NCBI GenBank assembly: GCA_964016885.1
Contig: OZ024743.1
Span: 323,950,001 to 324,014,000 of the forward strand
Reading direction: 5' to 3'
Origin: Eledone cirrhosa
Taxonomy: Eukaryota
DNA length: 64,000 nucleotides
Position numbers and translations under genes: made by a program. Every line of letters starts with the position of its first letter. Position 1 is the stretch's first letter. Shown here in pieces: positions 41,415 through 41,976 of the stretch. The notes under the pieces were generated by a model. It was not told the origin of the DNA, ran no database searches, and saw only the letters and a list, made by a program, of their open reading frames with translations.

Positions 41415-41976
41415 TTAGAAATTGGATTAAATGCTCTGAAATAGCGATATATATGTGAAGATAGACATAGAATATTCGAAAATATTCTGTATGTTTATAA
41501 TAAACATTTTGAAGACCTAATCGCTATAGAATAGAATACGTCACGTATTACAATTAGATTCTATAGCGATTAGATTCTATACAATTAGATTCTATAGCGA
41601 TTAGGTCTTCAAAATGTTTATTATAAACATACAGAATATTTTCGAATATTCTATGTCTATCTTCACATATATATCGCTATTGCAGAGCATTTAATCCAAT
41701 TTCTAATTTCTGCCGGACCGGCAACCGCTCTTTCAAACCAGTTCCTGTACACAGCTAAGTATTCTATAAGTCTCTAGCTGTGTCATTCTCGATAAAAGCA
41801 CTGGATATGTAATCCTGAAGATTTCTAATGAGAATGAAACGCGTAGGTTACTTCCCTTGCTTTTATCGAGAATCTAATTGTAATACGTGACGTATTCTAT
41901 TCTATAGCGATTAGGTCTTCAAAATGTTTATTATAAACATACAGAATATTTTCGAATATTCTATGTCTATCTTCAT
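41415..41976 (+). mobile_element. Separate, slightly diverged insertion of the 310-bp retrozyme-like family with internal inversion
   Basis: 41415-41562 in array orientation, scrambled junction, 41589-41976 inverted; HHR at 41809-41851. Confidence 0.88.
41809..41851 (+). ncRNA. Variant type I hammerhead ribozyme
   Basis: GTAATC-CTGAAGA-TTTCT aatg AGAAT-GAAACGCGTA-GGTTAC; differences from the array HHR preserve the structure. Confidence 0.85.

What the first reader, a model, noticed from the sequence alone, without database searches (positions are those of the whole stretch)
41809..41851. A diverged copy shows structure-preserving changes in the ribozyme
Seen, relative to the array HHR: stem I changes from GUAGUC/GAUUAC to GUAAUC/GGUUAC (G-U becomes A-U, U-A becomes U-G, pairing kept). 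The core changes only at the freely variable N7 (CUGAUGA to CUGAAGA). Loop II changes AACA to AAUG. All five differences fall at tolerated positions. Inference: the family is under selection for ribozyme function, as expected if replication passes through the RNA.
Basis: partly seen in the sequence, partly recalled or inferred. Interest (0 to 1): 0.8.

Follow-up and report, generated by a model that had tools for sequence, protein, structure and literature searches.

The report
Ribozyme-filtered jumping RNA repeat family
The flagged stretch is a hammerhead-ribozyme motif in one variant of a young 310-base repeat present in over 16,000 copies; variants that spread to new sites spare the motif while stray mutations do not, which indicates that the repeat likely spreads as a self-cutting RNA, probably copied by a Penelope-type transposon enzyme.

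Summary
The five differences are real and fall at tolerated positions of a type I hammerhead. But the copy is not decayed. Its exact 43-mer occurs 50 times at 18 places; it belongs to a probably older subfamily of a 310-nt non-LTR retrozyme (16,419 flank-intact copies). All stem changes are one-sided, none compensatory.

The selection inference holds on better evidence. In 117 arrays, changes fixed across a whole array never damage the ribozyme domain (0 of 15); one-unit changes do (23 of 34; P=5e-6). Held-out arrays alone were not significant (P=0.14). Genome-wide, no multi-unit array examined is fixed for a C3 or G12 lesion. The one fixed helix III change keeps pairing.

The ribozyme is predicted to fold only as a tandem dimer through the palindrome ACGCGU. 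Insertions carry Penelope-type marks: (AT)n targets and head-to-head arms. Among 92 two-armed loci picked by a tailed end, 90 have a short other end (35-nt tail on one side only).

Likely mechanism: self-cleaved RNA, often a circle, reverse-transcribed from both ends of a cut by a Penelope-like enzyme. Cleavage, expression and the partner element were not shown. New member of a known kind, with unusually clean mechanistic evidence.

The parts
41809..41851 (+). Type I hammerhead motif of the single-ribozyme copy: stem I 41809-41814/41846-41851; core CUGAAGA 41815-41821; helix II 41822-41835 with U.U at its base; GAAA 41836-41839; palindrome ACGCGU 41839-41844; predicted cut after 41845
   Evidence: numbering from the standard hammerhead model (recalled, and PMC4209133)
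41786..41872 (+). Extended stem I hairpin enclosing the ribozyme (internal loop, then a 15-bp distal stem); array-fixed changes here also keep pairing
41589..41983 (+). Sense arm of the single-ribozyme insertion: 5'-truncated partial unit plus one full 310-nt unit, ending at the 'short' end in (AT)n
41414..41562 (-). Inverted arm of the same insertion; lacks the ribozyme and ends near the 'tail' end in (AT)n
41900..41975 (+). Upstream half of the 3'-end module (two hairpins up to the short end) shared with sister retrozyme families; likely reverse-transcriptase recognition region (inferred)
28791..36974 (-). Long arm of the neighbouring array: about 26 near-identical 310-nt units, 26 ribozymes, short end in (AT)n
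36974..38243 (+). Short arm of the array, head-to-head with the long arm: 4 ribozymes, tailed end
38209..38243 (+). 35-nt extension ('tail') present at only one end of the insertion
28129..28798 (.). (AT)n-type microsatellite target, left of the array
38242..39770 (.). (AT)n-type microsatellite target, right of the array
41194..41415 (.). (AT)n-type microsatellite target, left of the single-ribozyme insertion
41975..42026 (.). (AT)n target, right of the single-ribozyme insertion

Best explanation
The stretch is the hammerhead motif of one subfamily of a young, 310-nt, non-coding tandem repeat (a non-LTR retrozyme) that likely spreads as self-cleaved RNA copied by a Penelope-like reverse transcriptase. 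Shown: at least 16,419 copies; homogeneous arrays; head-to-head arms in (AT)n with one tailed and one short end; array-wide variants that spare the ribozyme. Predicted by folding: two neighbouring units pair through ACGCGU, so that each core cuts the other unit's site. Inferred: (1) arrays are transcribed as multimers that self-cleave as dimers, and monomers (sometimes multimers) are ligated to circles; (2) a Penelope-like RT/GIY-YIG protein cuts (AT)n and primes cDNA from both DNA ends at two internal start sites 35 nt apart, running round the template to give two tandem arms joined at their truncated 5' ends; (3) a variant becomes array-wide only by passing a one-unit RNA bottleneck and spreads only if the ribozyme works, while dead units can ride along in multimeric templates. 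The flagged copy inherited its five changes from such a lineage; with one ribozyme only, it is probably inactive where it sits.
For: Fixed versus private substitutions in the ribozyme domain: 0 of 15 versus 23 of 34 disruptive, P=5e-6, 117 arrays, 1,055 units. One-off fixed alleles only: 0 of 5 versus 23 of 34, P=0.008. Genome-wide: C3 changed in 14 copies, G12 in 26, the first palindrome C in 41. In the 12 places fetched, no multi-unit array was fixed for a C3 or G12 lesion; the only fixed change was C>U in 19 of 19 units, which keeps a 6-bp duplex (-3.9 versus -7.5 kcal/mol). The unconstrained fold of a tandem dimer is the double hammerhead. 90 of 92 two-armed insertions have one tail end and one short end (the tail end was the selection criterion, the short end was not). 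Both arms share the majority alleles in 84 of 89 arrays, and 74 of 82 arrays have no variant shared by two units. 5' junctions ignore the cleavage site (7 of 184 versus 7.7 expected), so the template runs through it. Two sister families have ribozymes of different sequence with the U3-A8 core covariation. Tail, inversion and (TA)n bias are PLE hallmarks (PMC8557442, PMC11167929). GIY-YIG and RT fragments occur in this genome.
Against: Position classes were set after seeing the first 100 loci. The 30 held-out arrays alone gave 0 of 11 versus 2 of 7 (P=0.14), and 9 of those 11 alleles were already known. Core plus palindrome alone: 0 of 32 fixed versus 7 of 113 private, too few to be significant, so most of the signal comes from stems. 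Zero fixed arrays at two core sites genome-wide is weak alone (rough hand estimate: under one expected per neutral site). One-unit insertions with a dead core exist (L289, L291) and cannot be classed. The motif has U.U at 10.1-11.1, and its monomer misfolds helix II with GAAA. Eight of nine predicted Xenopus retrozyme dimers did not cleave in vitro (bioRxiv 10.64898/2026.07.22.740005). A Poseidon PLE inserted in vitro without ribozyme cleavage (PMC11167929). Periodic and mosaic arrays show that not every template is a monomer. No autonomous partner was found.
Confidence: 0.72

Rival explanations
1. Same element and same Penelope-type mobilisation, but what is selected is the shape of the RNA (stems needed for stability or protein binding), not catalysis. 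Uncut linear multimers are the templates and the core is conserved by descent.
For: The significant signal comes mostly from stem positions; the core alone is under-powered. Core-dead units are copied within multimers. Cleavage was dispensable for PAc insertion in vitro (PMC11167929).
Against: Alleles fixed in up to 25 units on both arms, yet seen at one locus only, need a one-unit bottleneck. Sister families keep catalytic cores, with U3-A8 covariation, in otherwise unrelated ribozymes. The dimer palindrome is kept.
Confidence: 0.15
2. Part of the 'structure-preserving' pattern is mutational: A-to-I editing of the RNA stems, fixed by reverse transcription, produces A>G changes that leave G.U pairs whether or not they are selected.
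For: A>G recurs at unit positions 141, 124 and 195 on 5, 4 and 3 haplotype backgrounds. All three have a 5' U, as do only 4 of 16 paired A's (post hoc P=0.007; the ADAR neighbour preference is recalled). No fixed C>U was seen in the ribozyme stems, although it also keeps pairing. Editing was raised as a source of retrozyme heterogeneity in mussel (PMC7229834).
Against: Outside the ribozyme domain, fixed A>G and T>C are balanced (3 and 3). It does not explain T>A at N7 and 10.1, the loop transversions or the bulge insertions, nor the absence of disruptive alleles. RT error bias or recombination could also give the recurrence.
Confidence: 0.2
3. An ordinary satellite homogenised at DNA level (unequal crossing-over, gene conversion), with a ribozyme-like motif that is a relic.
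For: Some long arrays show irregular higher-order periods typical of unequal exchange.
Against: DNA-level homogenisation would fix disruptive changes as often as tolerated ones; 0 of 15 were seen. It does not predict over 1,100 dispersed insertions with identical tail junctions or paired tail and short ends.
Confidence: 0.04
4. Mobilisation by a LINE (L1/RTE-type) with twin priming rather than by a Penelope-like element.
For: 5' inversions with micro-overlaps at the junction resemble L1 twin priming (recalled). LINE-type RT fragments are common nearby.
Against: There is no poly(A) or simple-repeat 3' tail. Two fixed internal ends 35 nt apart, one per arm, match the PLE tail and the two RT start sites described in PMC11167929.
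Confidence: 0.08

Closest known systems
Metazoan non-LTR retrozymes (Cervera and de la Pena 2020, PMC7229834), especially axolotl Rtz331/HHR_Amex1 and Rtz353/HHR_Amex2
   Same: Non-coding tandem units of about 300 nt, low GC, one type I hammerhead per unit. One-pair helix III with a palindromic tetraloop as in Amex1; U.U at the base of helix II as in Amex2; dimer-dependent fold.
   Different: Both weakening features occur in one motif here. Arrays are small, dispersed, two-armed and end in (AT)n with a one-sided tail. Cleavage and circular RNA were shown there and not here.
Penelope-like elements: Poseidon PAc (PMC11167929); Naiad and Neptune insertion anatomy (PMC8557442)
   Same: AT-rich or (TA)n targets, inverted 5'-truncated copy, 30-40-bp tail at one end only, two internal RT start sites, hammerhead in the repeated unit.
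   Different: No RT or GIY-YIG reading frame, and no homology to an autonomous element was found. Naiads are reported to lack canonical hammerheads.
Xenopus non-LTR retrozymes derived from PLE pseudo-LTRs (bioRxiv 10.64898/2026.07.22.740005)
   Same: Proposed non-autonomous dependence on PLEs; monomers, dimers and multimers.
   Different: That work argues from co-occurrence and homology and invokes local amplification by unequal crossover. Here the evidence is insertion anatomy and selection on array-fixed alleles, which point to arrays being written at insertion.
Minimal hammerheads of Schistosoma Cercyon PLEs with the U3-A8 core (PMC4209133)
   Same: Two sister families in this genome carry the same U3-A8 covariation.
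   Different: The family at issue keeps C3-G8 and has a six-pair stem I.

Membership tests
Type I hammerhead ribozyme | Core CUGANGA, GAAA, U16.1-H17, with stem I open-ended | tested here: met
Type I hammerhead ribozyme | Three helices able to form | tested here: met
   Helix III has one pair in the monomer and six in the tandem dimer, which is the predicted minimum-energy fold
Type I hammerhead ribozyme | Purine-pyrimidine pair at 10.1-11.1 | tested here: not met
   U.U in most copies, A-U in the youngest subfamily (32 of 134 loci). This is a preference with a known active exception (HHR_Amex2, PMC7229834), not an absolute requirement.
Type I hammerhead ribozyme | Match to an Rfam hammerhead model | tested here: not met
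   No gathering-level hit in the window; no hammerhead hit up to E=10 in 41700-41950
Type I hammerhead ribozyme | Site-specific self-cleavage | not testable with these tools
   needs a cleavage assay
Non-LTR retrozyme | Tandem units of 150-450 bp, each with a type I hammerhead | tested here: met
   310-bp units, 30 motifs in the window array; 16,419 genome-wide
Non-LTR retrozyme | Low GC, no long reading frame | tested here: met
   about 34% GC; no open frame of 280 aa or more inside arrays
Non-LTR retrozyme | Expressed as linear and circular monomer RNA | not testable with these tools
   no usable RNA run (see Tried and rejected)
Non-LTR retrozyme | Target-site duplications | tested here: inconclusive
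   both ends lie in (AT)n, where a duplication cannot be read
Penelope-like element (autonomous) | RT plus GIY-YIG reading frame | tested here: not met
   the element is non-autonomous
PLE-mobilised insertion | 30-40-bp tail at one end only | tested here: met
   90 of 92 two-armed loci; loci were picked by the tail end
PLE-mobilised insertion | Inverted 5'-truncated copy and (TA)n target | tested here: met
   92 of 100 loci two-armed and head-to-head; ends in (AT)n
PLE-mobilised insertion | Homology to the pseudo-LTR of an autonomous PLE | tested here: inconclusive
   searches found only non-coding sister families
Plant LTR retrozyme | Type III hammerhead in two LTRs flanking a unique body | tested here: not met
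   type I motif in pure tandem units

The most novel reading that the evidence does not exclude
Each insertion is a two-ended rolling-circle transcript of one RNA circle, primed from both ends of a Penelope-type cut at the enzyme's two start sites. The family evolves at RNA level: A-to-I edits in its stems are written into the genome, reciprocal dimer cleavage shelters dead units, and successive subfamilies retune the ribozyme (the youngest turns the U.U at the base of helix II into A-U).
Probability: 0.2. Interest if true: 0.8.

Novelty: new member of a known kind. Interest (0 to 1): 0.52.

Why it matters
How animal retrozymes get into new sites, and whether their ribozyme matters in vivo, is described as unresolved in the papers read, and one in vitro PLE study found cleavage dispensable. 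This very young family records both in the genome: a Penelope-type tail on one end in 90 of 92 two-armed insertions, and a filter that keeps ribozyme-breaking changes out of whole arrays. It supplies natural variants (U.U or A-U at helix II, a wobble palindrome, U3-A8 sister cores) and two mapped start sites for direct cleavage and priming assays. The single pairwise comparison that was flagged is ordinary on its own.

Tried and rejected
Rfam found no hammerhead, so the assignment rests on the consensus core and folding. A DNA search of the genome with the array unit returned nothing, an artefact of common-word skipping, since one search found 16,419 copies.

Expression: no RNA holder listed. 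Three of four runs laid (X1, X3, X6) held one 340-nt cyclic contig at depth 10-15, which a tandem repeat at trace level would also give. X2 held many variants at very high depth. None of this is evidence for or against a circular RNA.

Partner search: the shared 3' module led only to two non-coding sister families. An endonuclease-like fragment beside one copy in L177 was not shared by the other copies and looks like an unrelated neighbour.

Compensatory covariation inside the family: none. R-scape was not available. Rooting with the sister family, compared by eye on the alignment, was not decisive; the tree is midpoint-rooted only. Earlier scan findings: none.

Rejected readings: 'decayed old copy'; 'selection acting on this copy in place' (one ribozyme, no partner); 'insertion starts at the cleavage site'.

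Full report
Observation. The window lies in a 3.0-Gb genome rich in (AT)n; the organism was not determined. A 310-bp unit forms an array at 28791-38243 and a separate insertion at 41414-41983. Unit positions (u) count from window 36974; in the flagged copy u = window position minus 41670. The flagged unit differs from the array unit at 9 of 310 sites, five of them in 41809-41851, exactly as reported. Under a model of core, palindrome and stems, 30% of possible substitutions in the 43 nt are tolerated, so five of five has P=0.0025 (0.007 type-matched). The crowding of five of nine differences into the motif has P=0.004. Rfam does not recognise the motif.

The ribozyme. It has the full type I core, a six-pair stem I continued by an internal loop and a 15-pair distal stem, a helix II with U.U at its base, and a helix III of one pair closed over a palindrome (ACGCGU). 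The monomer is predicted to mispair helix II with GAAA. The unconstrained minimum-energy fold of two tandem units is the double hammerhead, with a six-pair helix III between units and stem I strands exchanged, so each core would cut the other unit's site (inferred from that fold). Axolotl retrozyme ribozymes show each weakening feature separately and cleave much better as dimers (PMC7229834, passages). The flagged insertion has only one ribozyme, so it is probably inactive in place.

The copy is a subfamily member. The exact 43-mer occurs 50 times at 18 places on 9 contigs. A pattern on the flanks alone finds 16,419 copies. Among 140 loci picked by their tail junction (fetched), 134 could be scored and 15 carry the flagged A at u142; 14 of these also carry G at u177. 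This subfamily has fewer ribozymes per locus (median 2 against 5-11.5; long arrays were cut by the 8-kb windows) and more private changes (7 in 6,556 bp against 11 in 110,856 bp for the A10.1 subfamily). More diverged lineages share A at u142, and three of those four also G at u177. A midpoint-rooted tree of 16 real units places the flagged type between them and a supported array clade (98/93). The array type is therefore probably the derived one. The only change private to the flagged copy is at 41682, outside the ribozyme.

Selection test. Arrays are nearly homogeneous: 74 of 82 arrays with five or more full units have no variant shared by two units, and both arms carry the same majority alleles in 84 of 89. 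I therefore compared alleles fixed in all full units of an array with one-unit changes. In u116-202, 0 of 13 fixed and 21 of 27 private substitutions were disruptive in the first 87 arrays (P=2e-6). In 30 held-out arrays it was 0 of 11 and 2 of 7 (P=0.14), and overall 0 of 15 and 23 of 34 (P=5e-6). One-off fixed alleles alone give 0 of 5 (P=0.008). Private changes fall in the motif at the neutral rate (14 of 94).

What was left out, and caveats. Dropped before counting: 23 of 140 loci with fewer than two full units, partial units, positions 1-4 and 303-310, indels, and 17 intermediate-frequency variants, three of which are disruptive. Classes were defined after the first alleles had been seen. 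Core plus palindrome alone (0 of 32 against 7 of 113) is not significant. No pair changes on both sides. Fixed one-base insertions in the 3' strand of stem I (C in 10 loci, U in 4) add a bulge without breaking pairs, by inspection.

Genome-wide core scans. C3 is changed in 14 copies at 13 places, G12 in 26 copies, and the first palindrome C in 41 copies. I fetched 12 of these places, including all runs of adjacent hits. No multi-unit array among them was fixed for a C3 or G12 lesion. The longest run was G12A in 4 of 8 units on both arms (L281), and two one-unit insertions had dead cores. The only fixed case was C>U in 19 of 19 units (L283), which keeps six pairs through G.U. The nine C>A or C>G copies never occur in adjacent units. 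The other single hits were not fetched. Periodic variants (periods 2, 4, 6, 7 and 10, some on both arms, some with dead cores) indicate multimeric templates or later duplication, in which dead units ride along.

Insertion anatomy. Of 100 loci, 92 have two arms, head-to-head, with both 3' ends facing out; in the loci whose flanks were printed the ends lie in (AT)n. In 90 of the 92, one arm ends near u30 and the other near u305; the two exceptions were cut by the window. The first end was the selection criterion, the second was not. There are 1,152 exact tail junctions. Inner junctions fall anywhere, usually with a few bases of overlap, and are not enriched at the cleavage site (7 of 184, 7.7 expected). 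A 30-40-bp tail at one end, an inverted truncated copy and (TA)n targets are described for PLEs (PMC8557442, passages). A Poseidon protein cuts and extends both strands of AT-rich DNA and starts reverse transcription at two internal sites that delimit the tail; its ribozyme was not needed in vitro (PMC11167929, main text). I infer priming from both ends of a PLE-type cut on a template that continues past both start sites, which a circle or multimer provides.

Relatives. A 321-bp sister family shares the region around the two ends, with matched changes in two hairpins, and shows the same ends and inversions by inspection. It has a different ribozyme: 43 of 53 motifs read have the U3-A8 core and three have C3-G8. 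A third, more distant family also has U3-A8. This covariation is known from Schistosoma PLEs (PMC4209133, part 1 of 4). PLE-type RT and GIY-YIG fragments occur in the fetched loci, but no autonomous element with the shared module was found.

Editing lead. A>G recurs at u141, u124 and u195 on 5, 4 and 3 backgrounds, all after U (post hoc P=0.007). Selection for pairing, RT bias or recombination could also produce this; it is untested.

Comparison and verdict. The element meets the sequence criteria of metazoan non-LTR retrozymes (PMC7229834: passages, section 14 and Discussion). It fits their proposed dependence on PLEs (bioRxiv 10.64898/2026.07.22.740005: abstract to Discussion). It is a new member of a known kind. 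Searches for retrozyme with twin priming (0 papers), with purifying selection (2) and octopus with hammerhead and Penelope (1 listed) showed no listing describing such an anatomy or test. The library lacks most subscription papers and no supplements were read, so priority is not established. Cleavage, expression, circularity and the partner enzyme remain inferred.

Noticed in passing
window 26528-27747: A second retrozyme-like family: 465-bp units with a type I hammerhead on the minus strand (26859, 27324), canonical G10.1-C11.1, a short palindromic helix III and an inverted end. Relatives in L137 and L140 show a two-sided change in helix II.
   Followed up: partly
L191-L220; L151 3900-4780: 321-bp sister family with the U3-A8 core, a full helix III and the same tail and short ends; L215 and L219 keep C3-G8.
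   Followed up: partly
L293-L322: Third, older family of about 290 bp or more with a U3-A8 core, a long palindromic helix III and a related 3' end.
   Followed up: partly
L095; L097, L106, L143, L180: Another tandem family (period about 490 bp) with a type I hammerhead; at least six hammerhead types were found in the fetched loci.
   Followed up: no
T152A loci, e.g. L132, L153, L176: The subfamily that turns U.U into A-U at the base of helix II has the fewest private changes and long arrays: possibly a recent, more active variant.
   Followed up: partly
L141, L123: Both arms begin at their outer ends with the same minority haplotype, as if primed on the same mosaic template.
   Followed up: partly
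window 45138-61000: Nested inverted pairs inside long (AT)n tracts (motifs at 47160/47327, 52674/60151, 52824/60001), suggesting further two-armed insertions.
   Followed up: no
window 2087-2093 and 3518-3524: Inverted pair of CUGAAGA motifs from a common repeat, possibly decayed PLE terminal ribozymes.
   Followed up: no
window 42030-45070; 12327-13450; 51260-53815: LINE-type reverse transcriptase and endonuclease fragments; the first begins just right of the flagged insertion.
   Followed up: no
G000:C28:43.30-43.36 Mb; G000:C14:25.23-25.25 Mb: Whole insertions duplicated many times inside larger tandem blocks, which inflates copy counts there.
   Followed up: partly
runs X1, X3, X6: Three runs labelled as other organisms hold one perfect cyclic copy of the array unit at depth 10-15; carry-over is the simplest reading.
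   Followed up: no
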